Shown here: positions 6,450-40,525 of the stretch, in pieces
Layout: each line of letters starts with the position of its first letter
Numbering within the stretch: position 1 is the first letter of the stretch
Assembly (NCBI RefSeq): GCF_021028975.2
Contig: NC_059429.1
Coordinates: 72,416,001-72,480,000 of the forward strand
Length of the DNA stretch: 64,000 bases
Direction of reading: 5' to 3'
DNA from: Sphaerodactylus townsendi
Lineage: Eukaryota
Translations under genes and position numbers: made by a program
Notes under the pieces: generated by a model
What the model was told of the DNA's origin: nothing
Databases searched by the model: none
Seen by the model: only the letters and a program-made list of their open reading frames with translations

Positions 6450-6581
6450 ACCTTGCATCTGTTGAATTGGATCCTTTTGATGGACAGACAGTAGCCAAAA
6501 TGCTCAGAGGCTATCTGGAACAATCGCCTCACCCTGTGATTCACCCAGCAATATACTGTGAACTACTCTACACAGTTAAAG
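6450..6581 (+). CDS. PIK3R3: Internal coding exon (132 nt, phase 1-1) of a p85-type PI3K regulatory subunit, BH/RhoGAP domain; probably long-form PIK3R3 (paralogue tentative)
   Basis: Acceptor ccttctctgcttattccAG at 6448-6449 and donor GTaaat at 6582. Translates (D)LASVELDPFDGQTVAKMLRGYLEQSPHPVIHPAIYCELLYTVK(E), which aligns without gaps to p85alpha [45 protein letters not shown]. Length and phases equal the recalled 132-nt PIK3R1 exon. The family call is firm; the symbol is inferred. Confidence 0.88.
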
Positions 6582-6636
6582 GTAAATGGTTATTGTTCCC
6601 TTTTTGACCACATTTCAAAATGTCCACATTCTGAAA

Positions 6637-7341
6637 TGTGAGCACCACACCGCACTGCCCCTTTTCACTGTCCCCACAAGGTAGGCTCAGATCCTCACAA
6701 TAAGTCAGCTCGATAACAGAAGATTAATACAGGGTTCTTTGCCCCCAAGGCATTTATTTCCACTTCAAGCAGTTACAGTGCTCTCCTCCCCCTCCATATC
6801 TTTCCTATCAACCACCCCGTGCTTCCCCCTCTGTCCTCCTTTTATCCCTCTCAAAACCCCACCCCCACCCCATCTCCCTGCTCCAGGGAATTAATGGCCA
6901 GCAGGCTGTCTTTCAAGCCCTGCCAGCTTGGGACTGACCCCCACCCCCACCCCAAATGCTCTTGGCCCTTCCCCCTGATGGCAACCTGGTCTGGGCTGTG
7001 TGAGCTCTGCCGTACTCTGAGGAAAGGCTGAGGCCTGCTGGTTGCAGTCTGGTCAAAGCTGTGTCAGCCTTGCCCTGCTCTGGGGAACTGCTGAGGTCTA
7101 CTGCTTACAGATTTACCTCAGCTTTATTGGTCCTGCTCTGCTCTGTAGAGGCTGGCAGCTGCTGCTTCTCAGGCCTTCCCACCAGCTTCTCCTGGCTTCC
7201 ACAAGGTCCCTTTGTTTGCTGGAAATCCAGGGAAGGTTGCCAGTTGCAGGATGTCCTGCCATTCATGGGTGAGCATCCATGAAAGGGAGGGGTGTGAGAA
7301 GGGCTTCTGGGTGCTGGAAGTCAGCCTTGTCCCCAGACACA
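6637..7341 (-). mobile_element. Possible solo LTR
   Basis: TG...CA ends; reverse-strand AATAAA near 6753 and a TATA-like motif near 6840. No clear TSD. Confidence 0.35.
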
Positions 7342-7469
7342 AACATTCTGTTATCCATTTGGGATATAGGAATGTGTCATTTTAAGGACTCCTGGAAAAT
7401 TGTTAGATTGTGTGACAAATAGTCCAGTCATAGTTAGTCTTCAAAAGAGCTGTAGTATTGCAGGGCAAG

Positions 7470-7850
7470 TGCCAACCATTATAATCTATACAAGGTAGAA
7501 GAGCTCCTAGTTTAGGAGTCTACTTGTCTGTAGGATACAAGTCTCACATTGGACAGGGTTATGCTACCACTGGAGATTCAGCTTCACACCTTGGAGTATT
7601 CCTAGAACCAGTCTTCTTTCTGGATGGCATGGGGGAACAGTGGCCAGGAGTACTTTTTTTAAAATTAGCTTAGATTGGTGTTTGATCCATGGACCACAAT
7701 TACACATCCTGCAGTAGTCTCAAGTTTAAATTACTATAATGCAATCCACACAGGGCTGCCTTTGAAAAATTCTTAAGAACTCAAATTAGTTCAAAATGGA
7801 CTGCTGAACTGCTTGATTACCATCTGGGGCTTGCCACTGGGATCACAGTA
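7470..7850 (+). mobile_element. Old L2-clade LINE ORF2 C-terminal fragment
   Basis: Decayed coding resembling LGVxLxP...VARS...SxLxYxNA...GLPLK...LKLVQN, typical of the L2 RT C-terminus. Confidence 0.65.
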
Positions 7851-9429
7851 CAACAATGTCAACCAATTAAAAAACTTGCAGATGCCCTTTTGATATACAA
7901 ATAATTTACAATTTAATAAACAAAAGCTGTAGAAAAGGAAGGCCTCCTTTAATATTTTCTTTTTCATTCCTTGTTACATTAAGATGATAGAATCAAAACA
8001 GTTTCAAGAACAGAGCCCTGAATTTGCAGTTCAGTTGGTTACAATTTGCTTTTATCAACTAAAATTCACTCCAAATGACATATCAACCAAAGTTTCAATT
8101 TATTAATCTACAAATTAAAACTTTAGGCCAGTTTTGACTGATGCTATTAATGTGGTTTTTGCAATAATGTCCAAATTCAATTTATGCCTGTTTTTTACAA
8201 AGTTTAAAAAACCAAATTAGCAAGGTCATTACATGAAAATGAATGTAGGAAGCATTGAGTTCCCAAAACCTTTTACACGGACTGAAATGGGCACTGTGGA
8301 CCTATCGATTGCATTTATACTCCATCCTTCCTAAAAAAATTTTTAGATATATTTATTCCCTCCCTTGTAGGTTATGCTAAAAGGAAATGGTGGCCAAGTT
8401 GAGTGGGCATTTGATGGAAATGAGTGGCCAGTGAGCACGGGTGAGTGCTTGTTTGAACTCAGCTCATCCCAGTTCAGTTCTGCACTCACTTTGGACCAAA
8501 CTAGATATGGTGGCATCCTTGTATCAAACATGGGGATGCCAGTACCATTTTCAAATGATTTAACAATGCTGCAATTCTGATTGGGCATAGAGGGTAGCAA
8601 GTAGAAGGAGTCTTGTTTCCCTCTCCCCTGTATCTTTTCAAGTGCTAAAGGAGCAGCATATGCATTCACCCCATGCAGCTGTTTTAGCATTTGAAAAGTC
8701 AAAGAAGGGAAATAGGTGTCCCTCAGCCCACCATGCCTTAGGCATTTGCAGCATGTTAAAACTCTTTAAGATGGCAGTGGCAGCCTCATGGTGGACATGA
8801 GGACACCATCAAATCTAGTCGGGCCTAAGGGAATGCCCATTTCACAGGCCTGCTACAGATGGTCTTTGGAAAAGTGCCACCAATAAAGGCATTGAACTTT
8901 GAAAGCTAGAATTCAAGTCAACAGCACCGGTTGGATTGAAAATACATTTATGTGAAGGATTCACTTCCATGTCAGATTTCAGCAATGAGCAGGTTGCTGT
9001 TGTGCATATCAGATTGCCACCTAAACTTAATTTGAAGTGAATTTGTCAGGTCCAGCTCAGGTGAACCATATGCAGAGTGACTGAAAAGAATCTCAGCCAG
9101 AGGTGCTAAGTTCCAAATTGTATTTATAAGAGGGAAAGCAACAACAATTTGCATTAGAAAACCTATCCATATGGATGGTGAGCCTGTTCCAAAAGCAAAA
9201 CATGCCAAAGTCACAGAATAATTTCTTCAGGTTCCCTCAGAAAAGGTTGAAATATCATGGTTTCAGAAATCAACATTATTCTGTTGTTTGAAGCATTTCC
9301 CATTTCGCTGGTGGTATCCTCAAATATGATGAAAAATAGTAATTGAAAATAAGAGCCTTAAACGGGCTACACTAATAACACCAATATTGTTTTTATCGAC
9401 TCACATTTTAGTGAGCCTCATTTGAATCT

Positions 9430-10250
9430 GCTTTATACTGAGGCAGACTATCAGTCCTCCTGGTGTTTTCTATTCTGTCTGACAGCAGCTCTCTAAGATA
9501 GGGGTCCCCAAACTTTTTAAACAGGGGGCCAGTTCACTGGCCCTCAGACTGTTGGTGGGGCCGGACTAAAAAAAACTAAAAAAACCTATGCACAAATGAT
9601 TGTAAAATGTTTGATTTCACCTTTCAGCCTTTCTGTCATGGTCTATTTTTAGAACAGTGACCAAAGTATGTCAAGTACAGGGTGGGCTCCAAATATTGTT
9701 GGGGAGGCTGTGGAATACCTTCCCCTGTAAAAAAAAAAGCAGAACTTTCCCAATGAAGCATTCCATCTAACCCAGGATCAGGTATCTTCCTGGGTTTCTT
9801 TCCCTCCCTAGCAGCCAGCGTAGCGATCCTGGCCAGCCTGGCTGATGCCAGTGAGGGAGTGAGGCGGAACAAGAAAGCCTGAGGAAGCAAACACATGGAG
9901 TAGCCAAGAGGGGAAAGGGTGGAGCGAAGCGTTGCCACATGTAAGGTTTCCAACTCTGGGTCAGCAACTTCATGGAAATTTGGGGGTGAACTAATGTAAC
10001 TGCAATCAACAGCCGTTGGGGCCGGTTCCTCCTCTCCCTCGAGCCCCCACTGCACATGAATGGAGCCATCACTGCCATGCCTGGCGGGCCGGATAAATGC
10101 CTTCAGGGGGCCACATTTGGCCCCCGGGCCGTAGTTTGGGGACCCCTGCTCTAAGATATGGGATGGATTTTCCAAGTCCTGCTACTCAAGATGCTTTTTG
10201 GCTGGAGAGCCCGAGGGGACATGCTCTACCGTTGCACCAAAGCCTCTCCT
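9430..10250 (-). mobile_element. tRNA-derived SINE with CR1-like tail, interrupted by the hAT element at 9499-10148
   Basis: The flanks join into a recognisable reverse-complemented SINE. Related pieces lie at about 1960-2050 and 26100-26260. Confidence 0.45.
9499..10148. mobile_element. Non-autonomous hAT transposon, OposCharlie1 (OC1)-like
   Basis: TIRs (t/c)aggggtccccaaact; perfect 8-bp TSD ctctaaga at 9491-9498 and 10149-10156. Subterminal sequences match recalled OC1 ends. Confidence 0.9.
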
Positions 10251-11105
10251 CCTCCCCAGTCATTCTGGGTGGGTGGGCGGACCTTGCTTTATTTCATAGT
10301 AAAATAATAGGAACTATTTCTGCTTGTAAGAGGTTTCACATCTACATGTTTAAACAAATGTATTTAGAATCTGAGCCTGTAGGTAGGAACCTTGTATTTA
10401 TGTAGAATATTTTAAGAGTATTTAGCAATACAAAAATGATAAGGAAGGAGGATGCCCTTTACTGAGAATCATTTTAGTAATATCAGAACAAACTACTGCA
10501 TATTTTCCCAGAATGATATGAACATGCGAGGAATTCCTTGCAAATCTTGAGTGTGGATGGGTCCTACTTAACAGCCCCACTGAAAAAGTAGGAGAGAATG
10601 TGAAGAGCAAATCTTTACCCTATCAAACCCAGTGTTTAGTAAGCTATTAATAACCCCCTGTTACATCTACACTCTAGAATAGATTTGCTCTGGGCTTTGC
10701 CTCTGTCACCACCCTGAAAAGAATTGGAAACTGATGTTGAAATGGTGAATTTCAGTGTTGTAATGCTGTATATTGCACTGGGTGGCAGAAGAGTTGTTGT
10801 TTTGGTTAAATTTCTTCCACTTTCCATGCTTTTTGAACCCAAACCTGAAAAATCTACACTCATAGTTGTCCTCATAGCTCTAAAAAAGTTTGCAGAATGA
10901 TACCTAAATTCAGCTGCATTGATCATGATAAGAAGATATGGGCCATAGCAATGCAGTTTTCCCCATCAACTTGATATGACTAGGCTAGCAGCTTCATGTT
11001 TCCATTCTCAGCCTCTAAACTGAACAGCAGCTGAGAGGAAGAAAAGGCTCTGTCACTGGCACCAGACAATGAAAGCAGAGAGGGAATGGGAATAGGTTGG
11101 GCTTG

Positions 11106-12180
11106 TGTAAGAAACAATCTGGACAAAGTTGATGAAGCAGGTAACAAAGCTTTTATTGGTTCTCGGTCTTGCAAGTTCCGGTGCCCTCTCAGAGAGAGAC
11201 ACACAGTTCCTTGGCTGTGCAGCAGCTTATATTTCCTTTTTAGGACCACCCATTCCCTCCTTCTTGTCTCCATTGGCAGGAGATAAGAGGGCTTAGCCTA
11301 TTACAATTCATCTGGACATATTATGTCATATACCAGGTGGCATCTCCTCCAATTAATATTTCTTTATATGGTCAATTCCTGCAATTAGTGTCAACCCTGT
11401 TAGTATCTTTATGATATATTTTCTTTCTGTGAGGACATCGTAGGTTCATCCAAGGGTTGCTTATCAGCAGGTGCCCCTCTGCTGACCTAGGCCTGCTAAT
11501 TGGAACGTGGATCCTGTCCTACGTTCCTATAACTATTGAATCTGGGCTTCAGAAGCATCTTAAAATGTTTCTTTATAAGATTTAAGTCAATATAAGTCAA
11601 TATATTGGACAAACTGGTAGCTATCGGTCTAAAAGGCTTAACCGGATTTCAAAATAGAGTTTCTGCTGGTCAGCTAGCATCTAGGGCCCTCTCTAAAGAA
11701 GCAAACTGCCTTATGGACTGAGAAAAAGACATTTTCTTTGGCCATATTAAAGAATTATACAAAGATTCTCATAAAGCATACTCAAAATACATATATTCTT
11801 TAAGTTCCATTATTTAGTTACAATATAGAAGCATTTTAAACGTAAAAACATATTATGAACTTTCCCCTACTAAACTCTTGAACCCCTTTTCCTGCCAGCT
11901 CATTAGAGCAAGTATACTAAACCAGCACACGTTATCATTACACTCCCTTTTTCTACTAACGGACTTCAAAGGAGGTGATATGACAGTCAAGCCATTCATC
12001 TCTCCTTCTGTTCCAATTAGTACCATTCTGGTGGGATATGATCTCAGAGCAGGTGTGCTTCATCCCAATTAGCCAACAAACTTTAAGACTTCTATCTGCT
12101 GCCAAGGTCACTATGCTCCCTTCTTAACGGACTTCAAAAGAGGAGATATGATAACCTTGGAGTCAATTGGACTTCTAACA
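11106..12180 (-). mobile_element. Solo LTR of an endogenous retrovirus (boundaries approximate)
   Basis: TG start; reverse AATAAA at 11152-11157 and TATA at about 11226-11232; internal duplicated motif taacggacttcaaa at about 11957 and 12125. Confidence 0.55.
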
Positions 12181-12213
12181 TCTTTAAAGTGAACTTTATA
12201 TGAACTCTACACA

Positions 12214-12407
12214 AACATAAGAACATAAAAACATAAGAACAAGCCAGCTGGATCAGACCAGAGTCCATCTAGTCCAGCTCTCTGCTACTCACAGTGGCCC
12301 ACCAGGTGCCTTTGGGAGCTCACATGCAGGATGTGAAAGCAATGGCCTTCTGCAGCTGTTGCTCCCGAGCACCTGGTCTGTTAAGGCATTTGCAATCTCA
12401 GATCAAA
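12214..12407 (-). mobile_element. CR1 LINE 3' UTR fragment
   Basis: (ataagaac)n tail; near-identical to the reverse complement of 14735-14918. Confidence 0.9.
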
Positions 12408-12811
12408 ACGTTTATAAAGCTAAATTATAGTCAGTGTTCAACAACCTTTGTATTTTCTGTGAAGGCTATATTCTTTGTGACTTCTAAATAATGCCTATAT
12501 TTGTGCACTAAAATGTTTATCTGTGAAAATACTTACTATAGTCTTACATTTCAGGAAAATACTTAATAATACCTTCTTTGTGTAAAAGCAACATTTTGTC
12601 ATCTCTCACAGTTTGTTTCATGCAGAAATGGAGCACCCACACTACACTTGCACAGAGGTCACGAGCAGCCTCTGATACGGAGCAAGATCCTTCTGAGGTG
12701 TGTGTGCTGGTAAGAGTTGTGGAGTCACTGATTCAAGCCTGGTGCCATTTATCTTGTATGCATATGTTGTGAGTAGCTAGCTAAGTTCCATGAGTATATT
12801 ACAGATGGTGG

Positions 12812-13018
12812 TAAGAACGTAAGAACATAAGAACAAGCCAGCTGGATCAGACCAGAGTCCATCTAGTCCAGCTCTCTGCTACTCGCAGTGGCCCACAGGT
12901 GCCTTTGAGAGCTCACATGCAGGATGTGAAAGCAATGGCCTTCTGCGGCTGTTGCTCCCGATCACCTGGTCTTTGGCTGTTGCTCCCGATCACCTGCTCC
13001 CGATCACCTGGTCTTTGG
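12812..13018 (-). mobile_element. CR1 LINE 3' UTR fragment with a rearranged 5' junction
   Basis: Same family as 13684-14918; reiterated ctcccgatcacctg(gtctttgg) at 12955-13018. Confidence 0.9.
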
Positions 13019-13683
13019 TAGCTGACCAAAGAAGTGTCACTCTTAATGTGCTGGAGATATCTAGCAGGTTATGGTCTTGGAAGAAATTACAGAAGGAGGT
13101 TGGAACCTGCTAAGAGCCTTGTCCAAATACCAGTTCACATTCTTCCTATTTGTAGCAGGCCAGAAGACTGCCTCAAGCTCTGCCTCAAGCTCTGGAAAGC
13201 CTGTAAGCACAGATCTATGTGTTGCTCCAGGCCAGAAGCCCAAATGGCTGCCAAGTTTCTGTGATACTGGCCTAGGAAGAAAGTATTATTGTAATTTTTT
13301 GGCTGAGCTGCACATTAAGTTTTTATTGTAAACGCATCCCTTTTTTTGGCTTTATATGGGCATAGAAAAATCTCTAGGACCTTTTTTTAGTTTGACATGT
13401 TAGAAGCCCCTCTGAGTCCCTGGAGGGTTTCCTTTTTCCTTTTGGACCTCCATATAACTATGTTTCTATGTTTATTTAGTTTTACTGGAATTATTTTTTA
13501 GAAGCAACAAGCCAAATATTTGAAACTGTGGAAGTTAAAAGAAACAGAACTCAGAAGAGAAGGCTTTGATTTATCAGTCATCAACAGGAGAATCTCAGCT
13601 ACTTGAAAGTGAAACACTTTATAAAACACATTTAAAACACATTTAGCTTTTTAGTTTTAAGAGCACTGTAAAAGTAATATCTA

Positions 13684-14918
13684 ACTCAGCAATGAAGGAA
13701 TAAGAGGGGAAGTCCTCCTATGGATTAAAAACTGGTTGAGGAACAGGAAACAAAGGGTGGGTATAAATGGGAAGTTCTCACAATGGAGAGATGTAGGGAG
13801 TGGTGTCCCCCAAGGATCCGTATTGGGACCAGTGCTCTTTAACCTATTCATAAGTGACCTGGACGTAGGGGTTGGTAGCGTGTTGGCCAAGTTTGCAGAT
13901 GATACCAAATTATGTAGGGTGGTGAGAACCACAAAGGATTGCGAAGAGCTCCAAGCGGACCTTGATAAATTAGGTGAGTGGGCTAGGAAATGGCAAATGC
14001 AGTTCAATGTAGCAAAATGTAAAGTGATGCACATAGGGGCAAAAAATCCAAACTTCACATACACGCTACAGGGGTCAGTGCTATCAGTCACAGACCAGGA
14101 AAGGGATTTGGGTGTCTTAGTTGATAGTTCCATGGGAATGTCAACTCAATGCATGGCAGCTGTGAAAAAGGCAAACTCTATGCTGGGGATAATTAGGAAA
14201 GGAGTTGATAATAAAACTGCAAGGATTGTCATCCTCTTATGTAAAGCAGTGGTGCGACCACACTTGGAGTACTGTGTTCAGTTCTGGTCGCCACATCTCA
14301 AAAAAGGATATTGAAGAGATAGAAAAAAAAAAGGCAGAGAAGGGCAACGAGGGATGATTGAAGCGATTGGAGCACACCTTCCCTATGAGGAGAAGACTGC
14401 AGCGTTTGGGACTCTCTCTTTAGTTTGGAGAGGAGACATCTGAGGGGGGATATGATTGAAGTCTATAAAATTATGCGCAGGGTAGAAAATGTTGACAGAG
14501 AGAAATTTCTCTCTCTTTCTCACAATACTAGAACCAGGGGGCATTCATTGAAAATGCTGGGGGGGGGGGAGAATTAGGACTAATAAAAGGAAACACTTCT
14601 TCACACAACGTGTGATTGGTGTTTGGAATATGCTGCCACAGAAGGTGGTTATGGCCACTAACCTGGATAGCTTTAAAAAGGGTTTGGACAGATTTATGGA
14701 GGAGAAGTCGATTTATGGCTACCAATCTTGATCCTCCTTGATCTCAGATTGCAAATGCCTTAGCAGACCAGGTGCTCAGGAGCAGCAGCAGCAGAAGGCC
14801 ATTGCTTTCACATCCTGCATGTGAGCTCCCAAAGGCACCTGGTGGGCTACTGCGAGTAGCAGAATGCTGGACTAGATGGACTCTGGTCTGATCCAGCAGG
14901 CTAGTTCTTATGTTCTTA
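13684..14918 (+). mobile_element. 5'-truncated CR1 LINE (ORF2 reverse transcriptase C-terminus plus 3' UTR)
   Basis: ORF 13736-14314 carries GVPQGSVLGPVLF, FADDTKL and RPHLEYCVQFWSP; ends in a ttcttatgttctta tail. Confidence 0.97.
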
Positions 14919-15964
14919 ATAATAATAATTAGTGATGCAATTTGTGAACATAGATCTACAGGCAGCAAAGCCAAAGTTCCTGAGTATCCCAGTCTTGATC
15001 TTTATTACAATGTCTTTTGCCTTCTCAAAAATGCCAAAAATATAATTTTCTATTTTACAGTCAAAGAACTTTGACCAAGTGGGTTGGGTTTTATGGATCC
15101 ATTCAGCTGACAGCAGTGCCTTCCTCCAGTGCGACTAGCCTTTCACTACACACGAGAGGCTCTTCTGCTGGTGAAGTAACCCCTTGCATTTGGGAAAGGC
15201 TCCTTGCATCAGAAGAAAGTATGGCTGCTGGAACAGATTGAAAACATTCCCCTATATAAAATATGATGACAAAGAGTTCACCACTTGGTCTGTGTGCATT
15301 ATATGTAATCATTTCCTAGGCATGTGTATCAACTGTCCATCCAACTTACACCAAGAAGTCCTGAAAGATAGATGCAACAGGCCATGTTCATGGTGCTCTG
15401 TGTAAAAATCTACATGCATGCCCTACAAAGAGATGACACTGACTTTTTTCCATTTGCAAATGACAGCCATCTGTTGGAGAAAGACCCTTTCTCCCAACCA
15501 AACAGGTGAATGCTGCTGTCATAAGAAGCTGTGCAGAGCATCTCTTTAGTGCTGTGCATATGGTCTTTATTTATTTACTTATTTAAAATATTTATGTGCC
15601 TGCCTTTCTCCTGAGCATCTCAAGAGCCAAGGTGGGTAACAATAATGTAAAAGCAATTTTATATTTCAAACATTAAAAATAAAAATATTAAAACCAGTCA
15701 AAAAGTACCTTATTGCCTGCCTAGGGTGTATTTCCCCTTTTTCCATGTTCAGATTGCCCCAAATCACTTCCCAGAGTCTCTTCAGAGGCATGGAGTTGCT
15801 ACTGAAAAGACTCAAACAAATGTGACTGTTGCCAAACATGCCTTGGACAAAGGGGGCATACTTATGGAAGAACATGCTGGTAAGATCAAAGCTGCGTACA
15901 GAAACATGCAGGAAACTGCAACAGGAACTGTTTGTGGAGTTTTAGGACTTAGGAATCCCAAATA

Positions 15965-18316
15965 ACTGACAGATGGCTGTCAATACTGTAACATCATATG
16001 TCAGCTTTTGTGAAGATCTTTGTATACCAACCAGGAACTTGCGTATATATAGTAACAACAAACCTTGGTTCACAGCTAAACTTAAGCAGTTACGTCGTTC
16101 CAAAGAAGAGGCCTACAGAAAAGGTGATAGAGTGCTGTACAATCAGGCCAGAAATGTATTAACAAAGGAGATCAGAGCAGCAAAAAGAAACTACTCTGAA
16201 AAGCTAAAAAATCAGTTTTCACCAAACGAAACAGCAAACATGTGGAAAACTCTTAAAAATATCACCGGTTACAGCAAACCACCTTCCCAAGCTGAAGGAA
16301 ATCAGCAATTGGCAGACGACCTGAATGTGTTCTACTGTAGGTTTGAAAATAATCTACAGTCACCTTTCTCACACAACCTCTATTTCAGATGCACCAACAA
16401 TAGCCAAACTTCCTACAACTGCACTCCATTTCATTGGGTTTACAACCCTGGTGATCTCTGTAGAAAAGGAAGTGCAAGATCCTATTTACACAGACAGGAA
16501 GCCTGGAAAAAAAGCCACCAGGCCCAGACAAGATAACACCTTCTTCCTTAACAGTCTGCGCTGTCCAATTGGCCATCTCATCTTCACTCAAATCTTCAAC
16601 AAATCACTCGAGATGTGCTATGTTCCTCCTGCTTCAAACACTCCCCTATCGTCCCAGTGCCAAAGAAGCCTTCCATCATAAGGAACTGAACGACTCACCA
16701 GACCAGTTGCTCTAACATCTGTAGTTAAGTGAAAACTTTTGAAAAGGCTAGTGATGTATCAGTTTGAAAACCATCAACAGCGGATCCACTGTTGGACCCC
16801 TTGCAATTTGCATACCGAGCAGTAATGAATCGTAACAGATAATGCTGTTAATATGGCTTTGTACTATATTCTACAGCATCTTGAATCGCCAAAGACCTAT
16901 GCAAGGGTCCTCTTTGTTGACTTTAGTTCAGCATTCAATACTATCATACTGGACATTCTTCTAACCAAATCTAAATCAATGCTAGCAGTACCTGAGCATA
17001 TATTTGTAAGTGGATCGCATAAGCTTCCTAACAGATAGGAAACAGCAGGTGAGGCTAGGGAAAAATTACATCAGACACTTGCCCAGCAAAATGAGCATGC
17101 AGGGACCCCTAAGGCTGTGTTACTTTCACCACTTCTCTTCTCTCTGTATACCAATGACTGCATCTCAAACTATCCATCTGTTAAAATACTGAAGTTTCTG
17201 CAAGAGGATACAACAGTGATTGGTCTCATTCGTGACAACGATGAGAAACCAAGCATACAGACGGGAGGTGTTGAACAACTAGCCTCGTGGTGCCACTGGA
17301 ACAATCTAGAACTGAACACACTTAAAACTCGTAGAAATGGTGGTAGATTTCAGGAGGAAACCCTCCCATCCTACCTCCTCTCACAATACTAGACAACACA
17401 GTATCAACAGTAGAGACCTTTAGAATTTCTAGGCTCCATCATATCCTTCATGACCTAAGAGAAATGGTCACCTAACATCAAAAATGTCATCAAAAAAAGC
17501 ACAACAAAGAATGTTCTTTCTGCGCCAACTCAGGAAGCTCTCCAAACTGCCCAAGGAGCTGCTGATACACAGTTCTACAGAGGAATCATTGAGTCTGTCA
17601 TCTGCACCCTCTATAACTGTGTGGTTTGGTTCCCGGCAACCCAACAAGACTCGACACCAGACTTCAGAGAGAATAATCAGAACCTGCAGAAAAACAATTG
17701 CTGCTAACCTGCCTTCCATTGAGGACCTGTATACTGCATCGGTCAAAAAAAGGGCTGTGAAAATATTTACTGACCCCTCAAGCATCCTGGTCATAAAACT
17801 GTTTCAACTCTTACCCTCTAAGCGTTGCTAAGCAGAGGCACTGCACACCAAGACATAACTAGACATAAGAGCATGTTTTTTTCCTCGAATGCCATCACTC
17901 TAAGCTAAAACAAATAATTGCCTCGATAATGTTAAAGCTATTTATTATATAATATTATATAATTACTGCACTACTTTTTTTCATCATTCTTATTACCCAT
18001 CTCCTCCCGCTTATGACTGTATGACTATAGCCTGTGCTGACATTACATTTTATTTCATTTTATTTCATTTTATTTTATGATTTTACATTTTATGGTTTCG
18101 TTACTATTGATTGTTTCCTGATTGCTTACTAGACCTATATGACAATCATTAAGTGTTGTACCTTATGATTCTTGACAAATGTATTTTTCTTTTATGTACA
18201 CTGAGAGCATATGCACCGGAGACAAATTCCTTGTGTGTCCAATCACACTTGGCCAATAAAGATTCTATTCTATTCTATTCTATTCTATTCTATTCTATTC
18301 TATTCTATTCTATTCT
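15965..18316 (+). mobile_element. 5'-truncated Rex1/Babar-clade LINE with frameshifted RT
   Basis: ORF pieces NNKPWFTAKL, YARVLFVDFSSAFNTI, LSPLLFSLYTNDC, DTTVIGLI and KKAQQRMFFLRQLRK; AATAAA at 18255 followed by an (ATTCT)n tail at 18262-18316. Confidence 0.93.
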
Positions 18317-22325: not shown

Positions 22326-22381
22326 CTACTTTAGGAGGGAATAAAAAGGAGTTTGGAATTAAATGCAGCAATATATAAATC

Positions 22382-30179: not shown

Positions 30180-31914
30180 ACCATTCAAAATCATGCATAT
30201 TGTATAATAGGAGGAATAAAGACTTTTGTTAGTTAGATGGCATCTGCAGACTTTTCTTTATATACGGTATTCAAATTATTAAATGAGAGGTTCTCTGGAA
30301 GCACAGCTTGAGATCTTAAGCCTATTTTTCATTTTATTTAAGATATTTCTCATAACCTACCCTTCAAAAGCTGGCCGACAGGAGCACATGATTCAAGCTC
30401 TTTCTTCCTCAACCCTTTCCCCTTCCATGTGTTTCATGTAATTGAGCATTTTGCAATAAGGAACACATTTTGAAAAGCGAGAGATAGCTGCCAGTCCTCA
30501 AAATACTTGGCCACGATGAAGGCGGCTGCATTTTAAAAGGCACTGCAATTGAGCATTGCTTGTTGCTAGGGCTTCTTTTTCTTGACCCCTTTAAATCAAA
30601 TGAGCTCCTTGAATCCTTTGCTAGAGGAAAGGTCAGGCACGCTGAGTGTTGCTAATGTTCTAATGAAGAGCTGAAGGAGTGGGGGGGGGGGGGCAGTGAG
30701 ACATCAAAAGAGCTTTTGCCAGCACTGGGGGTGGGGTGCAGAGGGTGATACATAGCAGCAGCACATCCCCAGCCCACGAGGCTTTGCTTTCTCTGCTGCT
30801 AAGTGGATTTGCTGAGATCCTATTTGCTGGGGAAATGTGGCTGAGCAGATTTCAGCTTTTTCTCGGTGCTTAGGGGAGCTGCCTGAGAGCGCTGATGGAA
30901 TTTATAAATGAAAAAGCTTAACTGAGTTTAATTATTACCCAGCGTAGTGCAAGCTACAAACTTGGGACAAGGGAAAGATGGAGGGGGTGGCAAAGCCACT
31001 CTTGCCCCAATTAGGGCACCATTCCACAGACAATTACTTAGGCTATAACAAAACCTTAACTTGCTTGCTGTCTTCTCAGTTCTTACTTGAAAGAAATATT
31101 CAAATCTAGCAGGAGGATGACATTCTTAAAGGGAAGTGTTGTCCTCTGTTCCCAAAGTGTTGGAACTCATACATGTCTCTAGAGTAGGGCCTTTCCCAGA
31201 GTGCCTCTACCTACCAGCCATTTATAGTGAGAAGTATAGCAGACCACTCGTTTTACTGAACAGGGTCTTTCCTCAGGGTTCCCACTGCCCAGTTAAGATA
31301 CCACACCACCCATTGAGCAATGTCAGATAAACCAGTAAGATAAACCAGATAACAGCAAGATAAACCAGTAGCAGAGACAGGTTACAAAGGCCAGAACTGG
31401 GATTCTGTGGTGACACAGCAACCTAGACATTTTGTGCCCCCTGCTAGCCACCTGGGGTGGGGCTGGTTGGCCTGGGGAGCACCACCAGAAACTGAAGGGA
31501 ATTCCCTCAGGAGTAATAAAGTTCTGTAGCTGGTTCCAAGGGAAGTCGGGTTAATTAACTAGCACATTGGTTAATTTAAGAGAATGGAATGTGACATGGG
31601 AAGTCCCCAGCTGAAATCTCACTTTTTTTGAGGGCACCAGGAGATAACATTAAGGTAATCTACTGTTCTTTCTATCTCAGTCCCCGGTTAGAAATACAGG
31701 GTTAAAGGACATTTCACAACTTCTTAATATTTTACTTACAAGTACTTCCCTATTAATTTTTTAAGCCTTTATTCCAGTTCTTTTGGGAATGCTTTAGTTC
31801 TCACCAAAAAGCCCAAAACAAAAAAATATAATATAGAACATCAAGGTTTGATTCCAGAACATAACCCCTTAAAAACTAGCAAGGTTTCCAGGATAGAAGC
31901 TCTCAAGAGTCTTA

Positions 31915-32124
31915 GGCCTTTCCTGCATACACAGCTTACCACGGATTTTTCCAGTGGTCAAATCTTGTGTCTTGGAAATGGTTTCTGTGAAATCATTCTG
32001 CACGCCTCCTACCTCCCACCGCTCTGCATTTTGGTGCCCCCCCGCCCCGGTGTTTTCATCTGCATTTTTTCCACACACTATGTTGAAAACATATTATTCC
32101 TGATGGTGGAGGGATGTCATCCCT
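31915..32124 (+). mobile_element. Dispersed non-autonomous element (Harbinger-like end); other copies at about 38600-38803 (-), 40190-40311 (-) and 51162-51335 (+)
   Basis: Shared core ggcctttt..gca.a.agcttac.acagatttt.ccagtggtcaaa...tgaaatcattc in four places. Confidence 0.7.
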
Positions 32125-33990
32125 GACCTCAGTGGGGCACAATGCCATGGGGTTCACCCTCCAAAGCATCCATTTTCTCCAAGGGAGCTGATTTCTGTAT
32201 TCTGGAGATGAGCTGTAATTCTGGGGGATCCCTATGCCCTGAGTCATCATTAAGAGGCCATGACACATTGTACAAATGCTTTATTTGCATCCACTAGAGG
32301 GAAGCATTATACATATATTTGGGCTGGTCTGGAAGAATAGCAGACCTGTATCTTGGAATGCCATCTCATGGACCCCTTGGAATTATACTTTAACTAGAGA
32401 AGTTGTATACAGCAAAGATCATATAGCTAGAATGTATTACACCTGGTAATTCTGATGTTTGTAAAAACAACAATAGTATGGAATTATAGTTTCAAGGGAA
32501 CTTTCTGTACCTGCATATTAATCTTGTGTTTTCCCTTTGGGAGCAGGTATAGATCATTTAATTGGAGAAAATGTGGCTCCTAAGACTGACATGACATTTT
32601 TACCAGAAAATAATTAAGCTGGGGTGGGGGGGAGGGCACTATCCTTTGTTGGCCTGTGTCCCAACATGGTTCTTTGTCTTCAGTTCATCATGCCCTTGTC
32701 CATAGCCTTCATAGATTCTCACAGGCACTGAATGAGCTATAATTTAGATTTTCTGAAACTGGAGCCAATACATTTGCCAGTCCATAACAATATCCATATT
32801 TGATTTGAGTTTCTCCATGTCTGCCTACTCTTAATTGCAGCTCTGTTTCCTGTAGTTTTGTTCCCTCCCACCCTCTCCCTACAGCCTTGTTTGATGGGCC
32901 CTCAGGTCAGAAGTCTTTCCCCACTGACTCATTAGCAATGCATAGTCCAGCCCATTTTGCATCCCAGCAGCCTCATTAATGAGCTGCACCATTGTACCAT
33001 CACACTCTGCTTGCTAATTATTATCATCAGACATTAATGTTGCAGATGTGGTGGAGCCAGTGGTTACTGAGACAACTTTGTCAAGATAAGATTTTAAAGA
33101 ACAGCTGCTACCCACTAGAGAATCACAGCAACCCACCCACCCCCATATTTTAAGGCCTGCAACACATCTGTGTAATTGGTACATACAGCAGAGAACTTCA
33201 CACAAAATTTCCTACACCTTAGCTTCCATTTTAAAGAATTTGTTTATATTAGCAGTACAGATATTATTTTGGCTGCAATCCTAAGCAAGAAATAAGTCCC
33301 AGGTTGTTGCATATATTAAATTGTCATATTCTGAGGAAGAGACCAGACCTGAGACTCTAGGCAAAAATCTGTTTTCCTTCACATTTTGAACAAGAACCTT
33401 AAAATCACCAGGATATTCTTGCATATCTTCTGTGAGTCAGGACAGTGCTAGGATTGGAGCTTGTGATTTGCCCAGGTCTACATAACAGGGTCTATGGCAG
33501 AACTGAGAGCAGATTCCTACCCAGTAAACTAGAGGTGTCTCATTGGCAGTTCATGTGCTAGATCTGGCCTTCAAAATAGGGTTACCTGGACTGCAGCAGC
33601 CCCAGCATATTTAATCAAAGTGTGAAAAATATTTTGCCCATAGTCTTTCTGGGAAGAGTTTCCCCCCCCAAAAAAAAACAGCCAGATAGAGGTCTGTATT
33701 TTTCTATTGCATCCTGTTTACTGTTGTATGGTACCCTTACCATATCTGTGTGTATGTGCTCCATGAAGCCTTTAATGCTAATTGTAAGAACTAACTTAAA
33801 GAGTCTAACAAGTAGTGAGGTGTCCAGGTTGTGCAGCAACATGGACCACTGAGCTCGGGGGATTTGTAGCCCCCCAGAATACAGTAGATGGTTACCCTTG
33901 CTTAAGAGCCATGTATAGAGAGAGGCCAACTGAATTCTAGCCAAAGCCAGAATTCAAAAGAGGGAAGTTCACATACAAATCAAACATACC

Positions 33991-35060
33991 CAGTAGTGGG
34001 ATTCAAATAATTTAACGACCAGTTTGCTGCCCTAATGACTATTCTAAGCATTAAAAAAGATATATCGAAAGGTAGTGTATTATTTCATACAGCTAATACT
34101 TAAATTAGAACAAAAAAACAGGTGCACAAAACTAGATTGTTATAAGAAAGAGTTTTAAAATATTAATGAAAAAACCTGCTTGAAAAACACCGATCCTCAT
34201 GATTTTTGCACTAAGTCATCCCAAAATCACCAGCACTTCACAACTCCTGCCATTAGCCACGTGTCTGAACACAACAATCACAGATCCCACACTTTGTGGT
34301 GCCGCAGTGATGCAAAAATCTGCTTGAGAAACATGGATCCTCATGAATCCTCATGATTTTTCCACTTGGTCACCCAAAAATCACCTGCACATCACAGCTC
34401 ATACCCCTACACACATGTCTGAACACAATAACCCTGCATCCCATGGCACCACAGTGCCATGGCACCACAGTGGCACAAAAATGTAGTTAAAACACACAGA
34501 TCCTCATGGATCCTCCTGATTTTTGCACTTGGTCACCCCAAATCACCAGCACATCGCAGCTCATGCCCCTGGCAATGTGCCTGAACATTTTGGGGTTGTT
34601 TTGGTGTTGTTGGGGGGAGAGGGAAGGCTTCTGCCGGCCCCCCAAGGGTCCAGCTCGCCTTTTGGGGTGGTTGGGGGGAGAGGGAAGGCTTCTGCCAGCC
34701 CCCCAAGGACACAGCTAGCCTTTTGCAGAGAGTGGGGGAGAGGGAAGGCTTCTGCCTAGCCCTCAACATCCAGAGTCTTGCCACCACACCCCTCCCCCTC
34801 CCATTCACTTATGGAGGCTCTGCTTTAGTTTCAGGCAGGCAGCAGGACCTGGAGGATTTCCTCCCCCTCCCGCCTAGTAAACTCCACTTTCCAGACTGGC
34901 CTCGGTCCCTCAATTAAGGCTCTTAAAGGAAAAGGTCCTCTTAAGAGGAAAAGTCCTCTTAAAGGGAAAGGTGCTTTCCCTTTAAGAGCCTAGGTTTTAA
35001 GGGAGGGCAGAGAGGCCAGGCTGGTAACAACCGGTTCTGGGAACTAGAAAAAAAAATAGC
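33991..35060. mobile_element. hAT-like non-autonomous element with internal tandem repeats
   Basis: Begins cagtagtgggattcaaa. Contains three related gatcctcatgatttttgcact units (34190-34570) and three 60-bp ggggagagggaaggcttctgcc units (34613-34760). Right end uncertain. Confidence 0.5.
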
Positions 35061-35619
35061 TACAGCTTCCTGAACATACCAATCTAGGTTAATACCATGA
35101 AGTAACGCAAGAAGAACTGAACACAATGTCTTCTTGGACAGAAAGCAAAATATTTTTTTTTAAAGATTGCCTGTATGAAATGTAAACTGTATCAGGTTAT
35201 GTGAAGATACTGTCCAAGTAGTTGCCATCCAGCTCCCAGGTATTTGAACTCTAAAACCCACAAATTGTTTGAAATGTCGTGCGGAAGATCTACCAGGGGG
35301 CATCTATTCCACTCCAGAGAAAAGCGAGGATTTTTCCCCATATTGTTATCTCCAGACTTTGTCGCGTCTGCAGATCCCAAGAGACCTTCTTCTACTTTGT
35401 TTAATAGGTCTAGCTGTTTCCATTATTGCAATAGGACGGCTTGGGAAAACAGAGAAACTCTGCTTCAGCAAGACAAACATTATAAAAAGGACCTTGTAAG
35501 AACAGCAAAATGGATGTGATATATTGAGATTCAGCTGCTGAAATGCGTAAAAATGTAGCCATGGCCATGATGCAAGCTGGACAATGGTTTAAGCCATCCT
35601 AATGCAATAATGATGTCAA

Positions 35620-36965
35620 TCTATATATATAAAAATGGAACCATGCGTTTGTTGCTTCGAGAATAACCCCGCACCTGCTGGCCCAAAAGCTCTGAAAATT
35701 TCACAGATACTTACTCATTCACCGACTGTGTTCTTACGTACCTCTCGCTGTCAGACAAAACACCTGAGCCAGGTAAAACATCTTTTTCCTGGCACACCAG
35801 GCCATGAAGCTGCCTGTGTGTAACTGTCACCCTTAGAATGTTCGTGCTCTTAGAATGTTCGCTCAGATGGCCAGATATGAGCAGTGAAAACAGAACATAG
35901 GCAATAATTCGAGTGGACGTGAAACACATACACACGTTGCCATGTGAGATGTCAGGTGGGGTTCCAGTGGAGGGATCCAAACATTTTAGTAACAGGTTCC
36001 CATGGTGGTGGGATTCAAACTGTGGTGTAGCGCCAATGGGGCTGGGCGGGACACGATGGGGGCATGGCCAAGCATTCCAGGGGCGGGGCATTCCTGGGCG
36101 GGGCTGTGGCAAGGACGCAGCCGCTGCGCCGGTCCTTGGGCGGGAAACAAATGCATGCAGGTGCAGGCTGCCACGCACACCAGTGCACCTCCTGCTAGAC
36201 TGCTTCAAGTTCTGCGCGCTACTGCTGAGAGGAGGGGCGTAACTAAGGCAAAAATCATGTGGCAAAATCACCAGTTAGTAACCCCCTCTTGGCACACACA
36301 AATAATTAGTAACCTACTCTCAGGAACCTGTGAGAACCTGCTGGATCCCACCTCTGGGGGTTCCCCCCCCTCACACGCAGGTACCTTTCACTCTCTGAGC
36401 CTCACCCACTACTACCACACAACACATCTACTCTCATACACATTCAGCGGAGGGAGAGGGAAGGGACAGAGGGGGAGGCATGCAAGGGAAGAGAAGTGGG
36501 GGAGGGGACAGAGAGTGAGGGGTGGCATGCAAGGGAGGGGAGGGAGCGGGCCCAGCATCTGGATGTGACCCACCCACCCTAGCAGAGGGAGACGGAAGAG
36601 GGGGAGGGGTGGCATGCAAGGGAAGAGAGGGTGGGAGAGGGAAGGGACGGAGGGGGAGGCATGCAAGGGAACAGAAGTTAGGGAGGGGAGACAGTGAGGG
36701 GTGGCATGAAAGGGAGGGGAGGGAGGGGGCACAGCATCTTGATATGACCCACCCACTCTAGCAAAGGGAAAGGGGAGGGAGGTAGGGGGAGGGGTGCCAT
36801 GCAAGGGAAGAGAAGTGAGGGAGGATGCGGTCACACACATCAATGACATCGCACAGTATCAGCCTGCGCATTTCCATGAGCATGTACTGCTGGCCTCTGC
36901 AATTGATTTGCTGCTACTGTTCCTTTCCCATTTCACCACAGCAACACGTGGCCAGGCCCCGCTAG
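35620..36965 (+). mobile_element. Non-autonomous Helitron with a nested hAT MITE and a GA-rich minisatellite
   Basis: 5' end TCtatatatataaaa after an A; 3' end ccacagcaacacgtgg hairpin then CTAG followed by T; no TSD. Purine-rich repeat at 36448-36830. Confidence 0.8.
35965..36356. mobile_element. hAT MITE nested in the Helitron
   Basis: TIRs cagtggagggatcca and tggatcccacctctg; ggggttc duplicated on both flanks. Absent from the homologous copy at about 45950-45985. Confidence 0.85.
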
Positions 36966-37549
36966 TTGGTAATAAAGACACATCACTCAGATGGCATAGT
37001 TTGTAGGCCTGATGTTGTGGAATAACGTGAAAATATTGACAATAACTATATGTTCTGATGGGCTATAAACTGAACATTCTTTAGAAGCAAATGCAAAGAT
37101 GTTAACCACTTTTTGATTCTTAAACCCTGTTCCTGAATTTTAACAGGAAATCTAGTTTATTTTCCTGTTTGTTTCAGCATTAGAGGCCGATCACTCCAGA
37201 GTGAGAATATTAAAAAGACACAAGGGTCTTTTCTGCATGAGTCATTCACTATGTATCTTGCCACCAAATGCTACATTTTTTTAATTTTGCACATTTTCCC
37301 TCCCTTTGATTCCAGAAATGTTTTTCCTTCATTGTGTTCCTGAGCACTTTTACTGCAATTTTTTTCACTCCATTTCTGAGCCAGCTTTCCTTGAGCCTGC
37401 GATCATGTTGAAACTGTCTTTATTTCTCTGCCCCACCAAACTCCTGGTCCTTATCCATGCCCATGTGTAGTCGCCCAAACTCCCCTTCAGCCATCTTCTC
37501 TTCCCCTCCTTCATTTCCGAAAGGATTTTAAAAATATTATCCTTATATT

Positions 37550-38480
37550 GAACTAGCATTCAGTCAGACACACACAAAAGCACAGTCAATTGGATCAGCT
37601 TTGTCAATTTCATATAGCACTTGCAGTGGAACATTGATTTTTGTGGGGGAGGGGACTATGATATAACATTAGGACAAAGACAGCCCCGCTGTTACAGCTT
37701 TGTCAATTTCATCACAAATTAGCTATTTAATGTTAAAATAAAGATGCACTGTGTTCCCAGTTAGAAGCAGGTGAAATTGACAAGAGAAATTGCTTTTGCT
37801 GGAAAAAAAATTGCCAAGGGACTGCCACAGTAACAATTGTGTGTTACTGCAGCTTTAATGTGGTCAAAAATGTGGTTCTTTTGAGTGGGGGAGCTACATG
37901 TTTCTGCTCCTTCAGGCAATGGCACCAGCTCCAGTAGGGGGCTTTTTGCTTCCATTTTGTGCAAGCACCTGGCCTTTATTCACATCCCTTTTCTTCTCCC
38001 CTTCTTCCTCCATTTTCAAAAGGAATTCTTTTTTATTTTTATTCTTTGTCATCTCAAACTGGTGATATAGCCTGGAGGCACAGCTACAACTAGCTTGGTC
38101 AATTGAATCAACTTTGTGAGTTTCACACAAAACTTGCAATCTTAACGTTCAGGCAGAGATACAAACTAGCATGGTCAATTCGATCAACTTTGTCAATTAC
38201 ACATAAAACCTGGGATCTGAAAATTCAGGCAGAGATTCAAGCTAGCATGTTCAATTGGATCAGCTTTGGCAATTTCATATCAAACTACCAATGCAGTGTT
38301 AGGACAGAGACCCATTTTGAAGCTGGGGACAATTAAGAAGAATACTTGGTGTAATTGCAGCATGTAATCAGTTGTGCATTACTGCAGATCAAATTTGGCC
38401 AGAAAATATGGTTCTTTGTGGAGAGGATTGGGCTACATGTTTACATTCATTCAGGTAATGGAGTTGTGTTGGCTTCCATT
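37550..38480. repeat. Degenerate tandem array (about 77-bp unit) plus a larger local duplication
   Basis: ctagcatggtcaattggatcagctttgtcaatttca-like motif at about 37586, 37696, 38089, 38166 and 38242; block 37840-37960 recurs at 38372-38482. Confidence 0.75.
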
Positions 38481-38850
38481 TTGGGTTGGTAGTTCTCAGT
38501 AGTAGAAGTGGAGGATGAGACATTTTTGAATTGCTGCTTCAAAATGTAATTGTGCAGTAACGCTAGAATGCCTGTGCAAAAGAAAAAAGGGGGGAGGATT
38601 GTACTTCTGCATCATGGATGACATCCCACCACCTCAGAAATAATATGTTTTCATCAATAGCATGTGGAATAAAGGTGACTGAAGAGACGGGGGGTGGGGG
38701 GCAAAATGACCAGGAGCAAGGGGTTCTGTGGAATGATTTCACAGAAAATGTTTCCATTTGACCACTGGGAAAATCTGTGGTAAGCTGTGCATATAGAAAA
38801 GGCCAATGTACATTAGCACACACTACAATAACACAAAATGCACATCTGTC

Positions 38851-38934
38851 AGGACTGCTTCATCCTTTATCGGAAGTTAAGACTGATTCACTCGTTATAG
38901 GAAGTTAGGACTGCTTCACCCATTATAGGAACTT
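38851..38934. repeat. 28-bp tandem repeat, 3 copies (aggactgcttca...ttataggaagtt)
   Basis: Directly visible. Confidence 0.85.
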
Positions 38935-39755
38935 GTTAGATCAAAGGTGTCTTTATAGTACAGAGCGAGAATGGACAGATTCTAAAATTCATGTGTGTAG
39001 TAGCTAATATTTGTGAATCATTGACTGGGATCCTTTGGCCCCAAATCCTCCTCTAACGTACACTTTAGTTATGAACAAATCTTCCCCACTACTAAGTAAA
39101 CTCAAGTTCTGTTGAGTCAGGATGGAGCCTGCATTTTGGAAGACTGTTCAAAAAGTCTGGCAGATCCTTGCCAGCATATAATTCTCATGTACTCTCCCAT
39201 AATCCTCAGACTGTGGAGGAATGATCACAATTATTCTCTACCCCTCTCTGCCCCTGCTCCTTTCAACTTGAGGAGCAAGAACTAGTCAGTTTATCATTCT
39301 CAACTGATCTCCTTTTGCTTTTCAAAAAGACTGGCCCTTCCTGATTCTAGCCCCATTGGTGACTCCACCATTCAAGATTTCTCATGAGTTCAGCAATTCT
39401 CATGGGAAGCAGCTTCAGCTATGATTCATTTCTTCATTTCCTCACTCCTGGTTCAAGGCTGCCTTCCAGCTGATTGTCAGGAGCCTTGAGCCAGTCTCAG
39501 CCAGCCAGTGGAGCAGAATCCTTTCCCTAAAGGCATCCTTGGTGTGTTGCCATTTAGGTAAGCAAGTGCTTAAGGTGGGTTCCCAGGTCCCCTTGGAATC
39601 AGGAAGCCTGGGGGGAGGGCACTCAGCTTCCCAACTCAAGGGAAGCAGATAAGAACCAATGGTTAAGTTTTGGTGAAATGATTCAAAAATTGCCTGCCTT
39701 GCATTTTTACCTATAGACAAAATCTCTTTTTCTTCCACCTCCATCTTTCTTTTAG

Positions 39756-39957
39756 AAACTCAAACTATGAAACAGTGTGACGAACAAATAAAGCTGATCC
39801 TGGAGTCTCCTTGCCTTCCCCAGTGGCACAGATGTCTACTGCAGCAGCTGATCAGATATTTCTACAAACTGTGCCAGAATGCCAACAAGAGTCACCTCAC
39901 ACCCAGGGTGTTTGGAGAGGCCTTCAGTAAAGTACTTTTCAGACCATCCTTGTTAAG
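39756..39957 (+). CDS. PIK3R3: Internal coding exon (202 nt, phase 1-2) of the same p85-type subunit, BH/RhoGAP domain
   Basis: Long pyrimidine tract with AG at 39754-39755 and donor GTgaga at 39958. Translates (E)TQTMKQCDEQIKLILESPCLPQWHRCLLQQLIRYFYKLCQNANKSHLTPRVFGEAFSKVLFRPSLL(S), aligning to p85alpha [68 protein letters not shown]. Length equals the recalled 202-nt PIK3R1 exon, and it is in frame with 6450-6581. Confidence 0.92.
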
Positions 39958-40423
39958 GTGAGACTGTTGAGCTGTAATATTTATCAGACATGTTGCAGGA
40001 GTTGGTTGAGGTTCTTTTTTACTGCTCTGTGAGCAAATCAGCCCAACCTGAGCTATTCGAAAATCAGATTTTATTCCTGTCTGACAGTATGACAGACACC
40101 CTAAGTGAAATCCATTTACATGTCAGATAAGAAAACCTATTCTTTTCCACTTATTTAGCATGTGAAATAAATCCAACTGAAGAGACAGGGGAGGGGAGTC
40201 AAAACAATGGTGGTAAAGAAGGTGTATGGAATGGTTTCACATAAAAGTTACCAAATCACAAGGTTTGGCCATTGGAAAATTCTCTGGTAAGCTGTGCATA
40301 GAAAAAAGGTCAATATCGTATTGTCTCATAGGTCTCTGAATGCCATTTTCCATCTACCATCCCAGCAGAATTCAAGTACAAGACCCATTGCTTCTGTTAT
40401 TTTTTTTGTCTTTGTATTGCCAG

Positions 40424-40506
40424 CATGGATGTGAATTCTGAACATCATGTAGAGATTATTGAGGCTCTCATTGTAGCTGGTGGAGGGTCTGAGATCCAGT
40501 CCACAG
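40424..40506 (+). CDS. PIK3R3: Internal coding exon (83 nt, phase 2-1), end of the BH domain
   Basis: Acceptor ttttttttgtctttgtattgccAG and donor GTagga at 40507. Translates (S)MDVNSEHHVEIIEALIVAGGGSEIQST, matching p85alpha [26 protein letters not shown] (80-nt exon, same phases). Too short to appear in the ORF track. Confidence 0.85.
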
Positions 40507-40525
40507 GTAGGAAATCACTCTAAGC

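What the first reader, a model, noticed from the sequence alone, without database searches (positions are those of the whole stretch)
6450..40506. A third BH/RhoGAP-bearing p85-type PI3K regulatory subunit (probable long 'p85gamma' form of PIK3R3)
Seen: three exons with canonical splice sites join into one open frame of about 139 aa. Their 132/202/83-nt sizes and 1-1/1-2/2-1 phases mirror PIK3R1 (132/202/80 nt, recalled). Established: mammals have only two BH-containing class IA adaptors, p85alpha (PIK3R1) and p85beta (PIK3R2). Mammalian PIK3R3 encodes p55gamma, which has no SH3 or BH domain. Inference: identity to p85alpha here is only about one third by eye, far below what an amniote PIK3R1 orthologue should show. 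This therefore looks like an intact extra SH3-BH arm retained in reptiles, either spliced onto PIK3R3 or belonging to a fourth paralogue. Such an isoform could add Rab/Rho/PTEN-type regulation that mammalian p55gamma lacks. It may exist in automated annotations, but I know of no functional characterisation.
Basis: partly seen in the sequence, partly recalled or inferred. Interest (0 to 1): 0.75.

Follow-up and report, generated by a model that had tools for sequence, protein, structure and literature searches.

The report
Ancestral long PIK3R3 isoform mammals lack
Three real exons encode part of an extra front end of the PI3K regulator PIK3R3 that databases already list from sharks to birds and that mammals likely lost; we found no study of what it does.

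Summary
The three exons are real: canonical splice sites, one open 138-codon frame. The peptide is 77.5% identical to a gecko 731-aa protein annotated as PIK3R3 isoform X1, but 34.6% to gecko p85alpha and 26-34% to p85beta. It nests in the gamma clade, and trees forcing it into alpha or beta are rejected. The SH3-BH arm is not reptile-specific and not a fourth paralogue. It is annotated on PIK3R3 in rays, sharks, ray-finned fish, coelacanth, caecilian, turtles, crocodilians and birds, beside short p55gamma forms that join the same core exon. PIK3R3 was therefore likely a two-promoter, p85alpha-like gene, and mammals likely kept only the short form. The SH3 and proline motifs used for p85 dimerisation are conserved; the arginine linked to Rab5-GAP activity varies. 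Splicing in this species was not shown, because all four runs found are genomic. Two runs likely carry a 1-nt deletion inside the 202-nt exon. The isoform is in automated annotation; ten paper searches listed no study of it, and one phylogeny says gamma lacks RhoGAP.

The parts
6450..6581 (+). Coding exon, middle of the BH/RhoGAP-fold domain of long PIK3R3 (residues about 165-208 of the gecko protein P0001)
   Evidence: AG/GT ends; 77% identity to P0001, E 5e-16; Pfam RhoGAP E 0.02
6582..39755 (+). 33,174-nt intron (inferred), with repeat and LINE fragments
   Evidence: GT..AG; no further family exon; RVT_1 at 13685-14311
39756..39957 (+). Coding exon, C-terminal part of the BH domain, holding the R274-equivalent arginine; likely site of a segregating 1-nt deletion
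   Evidence: 78% to P0001, E 3e-26; best PDB hits are p85alpha BH; deletion inferred
39958..40423 (+). 466-nt intron (inferred)
   Evidence: GT..AG
40424..40506 (+). Coding exon, last BH helix; ends in phase 1 where long and short isoforms of relatives join the shared core; one codon shorter than orthologues
62501..63500 (+). CpG island with a consensus splice donor after 63011: candidate internal promoter and non-coding first exon of the short p55gamma transcript (inferred, untested)
   Evidence: GC up to 0.71, CpG o/e 0.85; the only [AC]AG|GTAAGT on the + strand of the window; p55gamma coding exon not in window

Best explanation
The three exons encode most of the BH (RhoGAP-fold) domain of a squamate PIK3R3 N-terminal arm, which is likely spliced onto the downstream p55gamma core to give a roughly 730-aa p85-type subunit, likely the ancestral form of the gene in jawed vertebrates. 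Shown: exon structure, open frame, gamma orthology, and long and short forms annotated in many lineages that join the core at the same residue. Inferred: an upstream promoter makes the long SH3-PR1-BH-PR2-nSH2-iSH2-cSH2 form; an internal promoter, possibly the CpG island at 62.5-63.5 kb, makes p55gamma; mammals lost the upstream exons. The long form would bind, stabilise and restrain p110 through the nearly unchanged core. The arm would most likely act as a dimerisation and scaffolding module (SH3 of one subunit binding PR1 of another, possibly with p85alpha or beta), not as an efficient Rab5 GAP or PTEN stabiliser. Odds: orthology about 0.97; spliced long isoform as the general vertebrate state about 0.9; made in this species about 0.75; scaffold rather than GAP about 0.6.
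For: Exon 2 finds only squamate gamma-type proteins (3 hits among 14 candidates), named PIK3R3 isoform X1 in gecko and lacertids. Joined peptide: 77.5% to gecko gamma, 53.6% to ray gamma, 34.6% to gecko alpha, 26-34% to four tetrapod or coelacanth beta; the gecko alpha reference is confirmed against 1PBW at E 7e-87. Tree of 34 rows: window sister to gecko gamma (100/98), gamma clade 99/97; AU rejects window+alpha (p 3e-5) and window+beta (p 0.007). Cores of 12 long forms, 5 short forms and one mammal form one clade (SH-aLRT 95, quick tree). Long forms are named in ray, shark, paddlefish, gar, teleost, coelacanth, caecilian, lizards, turtles, gharial and birds; short forms in skate, sharks, catfish, sturgeon, turtle, birds and geckos; 5 long and 7 short forms join the core at the same residue. 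The arm of a cordylid lizard folds as SH3 + BH (pLDDT 82.7; best match 1PBW, E 2e-9). In 47 gamma arms: SH3 R18 46, E19 40, E20 42, D21 43, W55 45; class I PR1 motif 45. These residues drive p85alpha dimerisation (PMC4518712, passages). Window versus gecko differences fall in 4 of 46 conserved and 27 of 92 variable columns (p 0.0085).
Against: No junction was observed in this species, and the SH3 and core exons lie outside the window. Isoform X1 records are automated models. Some pipelines annotate the arm as a separate 'alpha-like' gene (cordylid, lungfish, spadefoot, silverside; a 51-member arm-only Atlas cluster), and two geckos were retrieved only as short forms. The window lineage has more private changes than the other gecko (16 vs 8, p 0.15), one radical change at a conserved leucine, and no constraint signal against the cordylid (13 of 46 vs 27 of 92). 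Two of four genomic runs likely carry a 1-nt deletion in exon 2. Mammalian loss rests on established knowledge plus weak negatives: no mammal name among 120 of 140 arm hits listed, in a search that also listed no teleost, frog or lungfish arm. The case against GAP activity is modest: R151 is kept in 41 of 47, the window has R274, and L191, V263 and P270 also vary among 4 non-mammalian alphas.
Confidence: 0.8

Rival explanations
1. The arm is transcribed as a stand-alone SH3-PR1-BH protein from a separate upstream unit and is not, or only rarely, joined to the p55gamma core.
For: Arm-only 'alpha-like' models in cordylid lizard (314 aa), silverside, lungfish and spadefoot; Atlas cluster of 51 arm-only proteins; at least 23 kb without a core exon after exon 3.
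Against: The silverside has both arm-only and 719-aa joined models, and the coelacanth beta gene is split the same way in an older annotation, which points to annotation splits. Exon 3 ends in a phase-1 donor at the point where joined forms meet the core. The Atlas cluster of full-length gamma-like proteins with RhoGAP has 445 members.
Confidence: 0.1
2. In this gecko lineage the arm is a decaying relic: the ancestral long isoform is being lost, as in mammals, and the exons are under little selection.
For: Likely 1-nt deletion in exon 2 in 2 of 4 runs; 16 vs 8 private changes; L193S at a conserved column; one codon lost in exon 3; degenerate SH3 motifs in an agamid; two geckos retrieved only as short forms.
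Against: Frame and all six splice dinucleotides are intact; differences from the other gecko avoid conserved columns (p 0.0085); neutral simulation left the frame intact in only 27 to 651 of 2000 runs, depending on assumed rates; the rate excess is not significant; the deletion's position was not shown.
Confidence: 0.2
3. The exons belong to PIK3R1, PIK3R2 or a fourth paralogue.
For: Many bird records of the same protein are named 'P85A kinase' or 'alpha'; Philippon 2015 found no p85beta in Lepidosauria, leaving room for a divergent beta.
Against: AU tests reject alpha and beta; geckos have their own alpha (P0175) and beta-type (P0148) proteins; the 'P85A' bird records are 96-97% identical to the turtle gamma core; the arm tree broadly follows the species tree with one copy per lineage.
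Confidence: 0.03
4. The long isoform works as p85alpha does: a Rab5/Rab4 GAP and PTEN stabiliser.
For: BH fold retained; R151 in 41 of 47, E137 or D in all 47, R274 in the window; SH3, PR1 and PR2 conserved.
Against: R274, tied to Rab5 binding and GAP activity (PMC5940657, PMC7458397), is R in 28 of 47 gamma arms (K 9, C 6, H 2, P 1, G 1) against 4 of 4 alphas; R151 is Q in 3 iguanian lizards; I133 and M176 are in none of the 47; p85beta, with a similarly diverged BH domain, fails to stabilise PTEN (PMC4518712).
Confidence: 0.25

Closest known systems
RefSeq/UniRef 'PI3K regulatory subunit gamma isoform X1' of non-mammals (e.g. XP_056700260.1 Euleptes, XP_034979167.2 Zootoca)
   Same: Direct orthologue: 61-78% identity among squamates over the 138 residues, same position before the core.
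   Different: Window exon 3 is one codon shorter; these are automated models with no functional study found.
p85alpha (PIK3R1; PDB 1PBW, 7MYN)
   Same: Same SH3-PR1-BH-PR2-nSH2-iSH2-cSH2 layout along the whole length and the same long-plus-short isoform logic (p85alpha, p55alpha, p50alpha).
   Different: BH only about 35% identical; R274, I133 and M176 not fixed in gamma; different clade.
p85beta (PIK3R2)
   Same: Full-length p85 with a conserved SH3 ligand site and a diverged BH domain.
   Different: 23-34% identity; AU test rejects membership.
Mammalian p55gamma (PIK3R3, 461 aa)
   Same: Same gene by the core: the one mammal model retrieved is 94% identical to the gharial long-form core and groups with gamma.
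   Different: No SH3 or BH domain.

Membership tests
Class IA PI3K regulatory subunit, full-length p85 type | BH/RhoGAP-fold domain homologous to p85 BH | tested here: met
   window exons; orthologues
Class IA PI3K regulatory subunit, full-length p85 type | N-terminal SH3 and proline-rich motifs | tested here: inconclusive
   Present in orthologues; these exons lie outside the window
Class IA PI3K regulatory subunit, full-length p85 type | nSH2-iSH2-cSH2 in the same polypeptide | tested here: inconclusive
   True of annotated orthologues; no junction seen in this species
Class IA PI3K regulatory subunit, full-length p85 type | Binds and regulates p110 | not testable with these tools
   Core 92-95% identical among gamma long forms; no assay
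PIK3R3 (gamma) orthology group | Groups with gamma, apart from alpha and beta | tested here: met
   Tree 99/97; AU p 3e-5 and 0.007
PIK3R3 (gamma) orthology group | Synteny with the PIK3R3 neighbourhood | not testable with these tools
   No genome held; no neighbouring gene detected in the window
PIK3R1 (p85alpha) | High BH identity to amniote p85alpha and placement in the alpha clade | tested here: not met
   34.6% to gecko alpha; AU rejects
PIK3R2 (p85beta) | Placement in the beta clade | tested here: not met
   23-34%; AU p 0.007
Catalytically active GAP (p85alpha-type Rab5 GAP) | Fixed R151 and R274 equivalents | tested here: inconclusive
   R151 41 of 47, R274 28 of 47; window has R274, its R151 exon is outside the window
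Catalytically active GAP (p85alpha-type Rab5 GAP) | Measured GTPase stimulation | not testable with these tools
   Needs an assay

The most novel reading that the evidence does not exclude
Jawed vertebrates have three full-length p85 subunits, mammals alone shed the third arm, and this gecko is caught repeating that loss: a frameshift allele segregates in a BH exon and removes only the long isoform, a natural knock-out that would show what mammals gave up.
Probability: 0.2. Interest if true: 0.62.

Novelty: new variant of a known kind. Interest (0 to 1): 0.4.

Why it matters
The textbook set of class IA adaptors (two long, one short) would be a mammalian peculiarity. A published PI3K phylogeny states that p55gamma homologues lack the RhoGAP domain (PMC4617754), which current annotations contradict. 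Work on PI3K in fish, amphibians and birds would need to allow for a third full-length p85 that could cover for loss of p85alpha, and many bird records named 'P85A' are really PIK3R3. It also offers a natural comparison for what the p85 SH3-BH arm does. The sequence itself is not new to databases, and no new biochemistry is shown.

Tried and rejected
Whole genome: none held, so no synteny and no upstream or downstream exons. RNA evidence: no RNA holder listed; the four runs laid on 39000-55900 are continuous across introns, hence genomic; this says nothing on expression. dN/dS: no orthologous DNA available; replaced by a column test and a neutral simulation with assumed indel rates, which alone is weak. 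Full-length AlphaFold model: low confidence (pLDDT 59.9), and its fold search only matched the SH2/iSH2 core. The p55gamma first exon was sought in the window without a hit. Rfam: 0 matches. 24 long ORFs: only one reverse-transcriptase fragment. Earlier findings: none. My first idea that 83 nt is the gamma-typical exon size was wrong; the norm is one codon longer. P3R3URF, recalled as a human reading frame upstream of PIK3R3, was searched by title listing only and not followed. No complex prediction was run, as a pass would mostly reflect likeness to p85alpha. One search ended in a script error and was rerun.
Full report
Observation. The three segments are in the sequence as described: 132, 202 and 83 nt, each between AG and GT, joining into 138 codons without a stop. 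Three squamate relatives match the window only there at E<1e-6, and a family profile over 2833 six-frame pieces adds no further exon below E=1. The SH3, first BH and SH2 exons, and the coding first exon of p55gamma, lie outside the window. No genome is held.

Identity. Exon 2 retrieved 3 proteins among 14 candidates: two 730-aa proteins named PIK3R3 isoform X1 and one 314-aa arm-only model. The joined peptide is 77.5% identical to the gecko gamma protein, 61-71% to five other squamates, 58.7% to turtle, 50.7-53.6% to shark and ray, 34.6% to gecko p85alpha and 23-34% to five p85beta sequences. The gecko alpha reference was checked against solved p85alpha BH (E 7e-87). In a 34-row tree the window is sister to the gecko gamma (100/98) inside a gamma clade (99/97) that broadly follows vertebrate relationships. 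Forcing it with alpha or beta is rejected (p-AU 3e-5 and 0.007). Alpha sampling is thin (4 rows, one amniote), and no human sequence was in the tree. The SH2-iSH2-SH2 cores of 12 long forms, 5 short forms and one mole-rat model form one clade (SH-aLRT 95, quick method). The window is likely from a gecko.

Range. The arm search gave 140 hits, 120 listed: long gamma forms in ray, paddlefish, sturgeon, gar, coelacanth, caecilian, lizards, turtles, gharial and many birds, many of the bird records misnamed alpha. Later calls added a teleost and a shark long form and arm pieces of lungfish and two frogs. Short 462-465-aa forms with the p55gamma N-terminus occur in skate, sharks, catfish, sturgeon, turtle, birds and geckos, and 5 long and 7 short forms join the core at the same residue. 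Invertebrate-type outgroup proteins carry RhoGAP too (PMC4617754). So the long form is likely ancestral, with a second, internal first exon already present in early jawed vertebrates. That mammals have only p55gamma is established knowledge (PMC4617754 table and PMC7458397, passages). My own negatives are weak: no mammal among the 120 listed, in a search that also listed no teleost, frog or lungfish arm. Monotremes and marsupials were not tested.

Mechanism. Shown: the arm of an orthologue folds as SH3 plus BH, best match 1PBW; the core is 92-95% identical between gecko and turtle, finch, coelacanth or ray, against 56-76% for SH3 and 45-63% for BH. Inferred: the long form regulates p110 as other p85 proteins do. 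In p85alpha, SH3 residues R18, E19, E20, D21 and W55 bind the PR1 motif in trans to form dimers (PMC4518712, passages). In 47 gamma arms these are kept in 46, 40, 42, 43 and 45, and a class I PR1 motif in 45. By contrast R274, tied to Rab5 binding and GAP activity (PMC5940657, PMC7458397, passages), is R in 28 of 47; R151 is R in 41 of 47; I133 and M176 are in none. The 47 include 29 birds, so they are not independent. L191, V263, P270 and M176 also vary among non-mammalian alphas, so they do not discriminate. I therefore favour a dimerisation or scaffold role (about 0.6) over p85alpha-like Rab-GAP and PTEN control (about 0.25). A CpG island at 62.5-63.5 kb with the window's only perfect consensus donor on the + strand (after 63011) is a candidate promoter for the short form; this is untested.

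State in this species. No RNA run was listed, and the four runs laid are genomic. Constraint is visible against the other gecko (4 of 46 conserved vs 27 of 92 variable columns differ, p 0.0085) but not against the cordylid (13 of 46 vs 27 of 92); the window has 16 private changes against 8 (p 0.15). Exon 3 lacks one codon relative to 44 of 45 orthologues. Contigs of X3 and X4 span 39000-40545 with one base fewer and one gap, and the same two runs hold 14 of 17 sampled words of exon 2, while X1 and X2 have no gap and hold all 17. X4 has no substitution there, and a single deletion inside the exon removes at most 18% of its 31-mers, while one outside removes none. A 1-nt deletion inside the exon is thus likely (about 0.65) but was not displayed by the tool. 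X2 and X3 are one sample, which would be heterozygous; the four runs are at most three samples of one study.

Literature. Ten full-text searches (listings and abstract starts only) showed no paper on a long PIK3R3 isoform. The 30 listed of 35 papers holding 'p85gamma' mention it once or twice, mostly in human-disease reviews, and were not opened. PMC4617754 (abstract and passages) says p55gamma homologues lack the rho-gap domain and found no p85beta in Lepidosauria; a beta-type gecko protein was retrieved here. Its figures and supplements were not seen, and subscription journals are not searched, so absence from print is not established.

Verdict. A real and likely ancestral long isoform of PIK3R3: known to automated annotation, apparently unremarked in the papers searched, of moderate interest. 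Splicing in this species, loss across all mammals and function remain inferred.

Noticed in passing
window 39756-39957; runs X3, X4: Likely 1-nt deletion inside exon 2 in two of four genomic runs; it would shift the frame of the long isoform only. Position not shown.
   Followed up: partly
window 62501-63500: CpG island with a consensus splice donor after 63011; candidate promoter of the short isoform.
   Followed up: partly
window 13683-14918, 29837-30180, 57356-58604, 12214-12407, 12812-12972: Copies of one interspersed repeat, 83-98% alike; one carries a reverse-transcriptase fragment (RVT_1, E 1e-14), likely a LINE.
   Followed up: no
window 40526-40650 and 44640-46330: Very high-copy repeats by contig depth; the first is a short element starting 20 nt after the exon 3 donor.
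   Followed up: no
P0020, P0137: Two agamid lizards have altered SH3 core motifs, and three iguanians have Q at the R151 position, hinting at uneven constraint on the arm in squamates.
   Followed up: partly
P0060-P0134, P0286: Misnamed records: many bird 'P85A kinase' proteins are long PIK3R3; a coelacanth protein named gamma is beta by sequence.
   Followed up: yes
P0148: A gecko p85beta-type protein exists, although Philippon 2015 found no beta in Lepidosauria.
   Followed up: partly
P0289: The mole-rat PIK3R3 model has an internal duplication and an unusual N-terminus, likely a prediction error.
   Followed up: no
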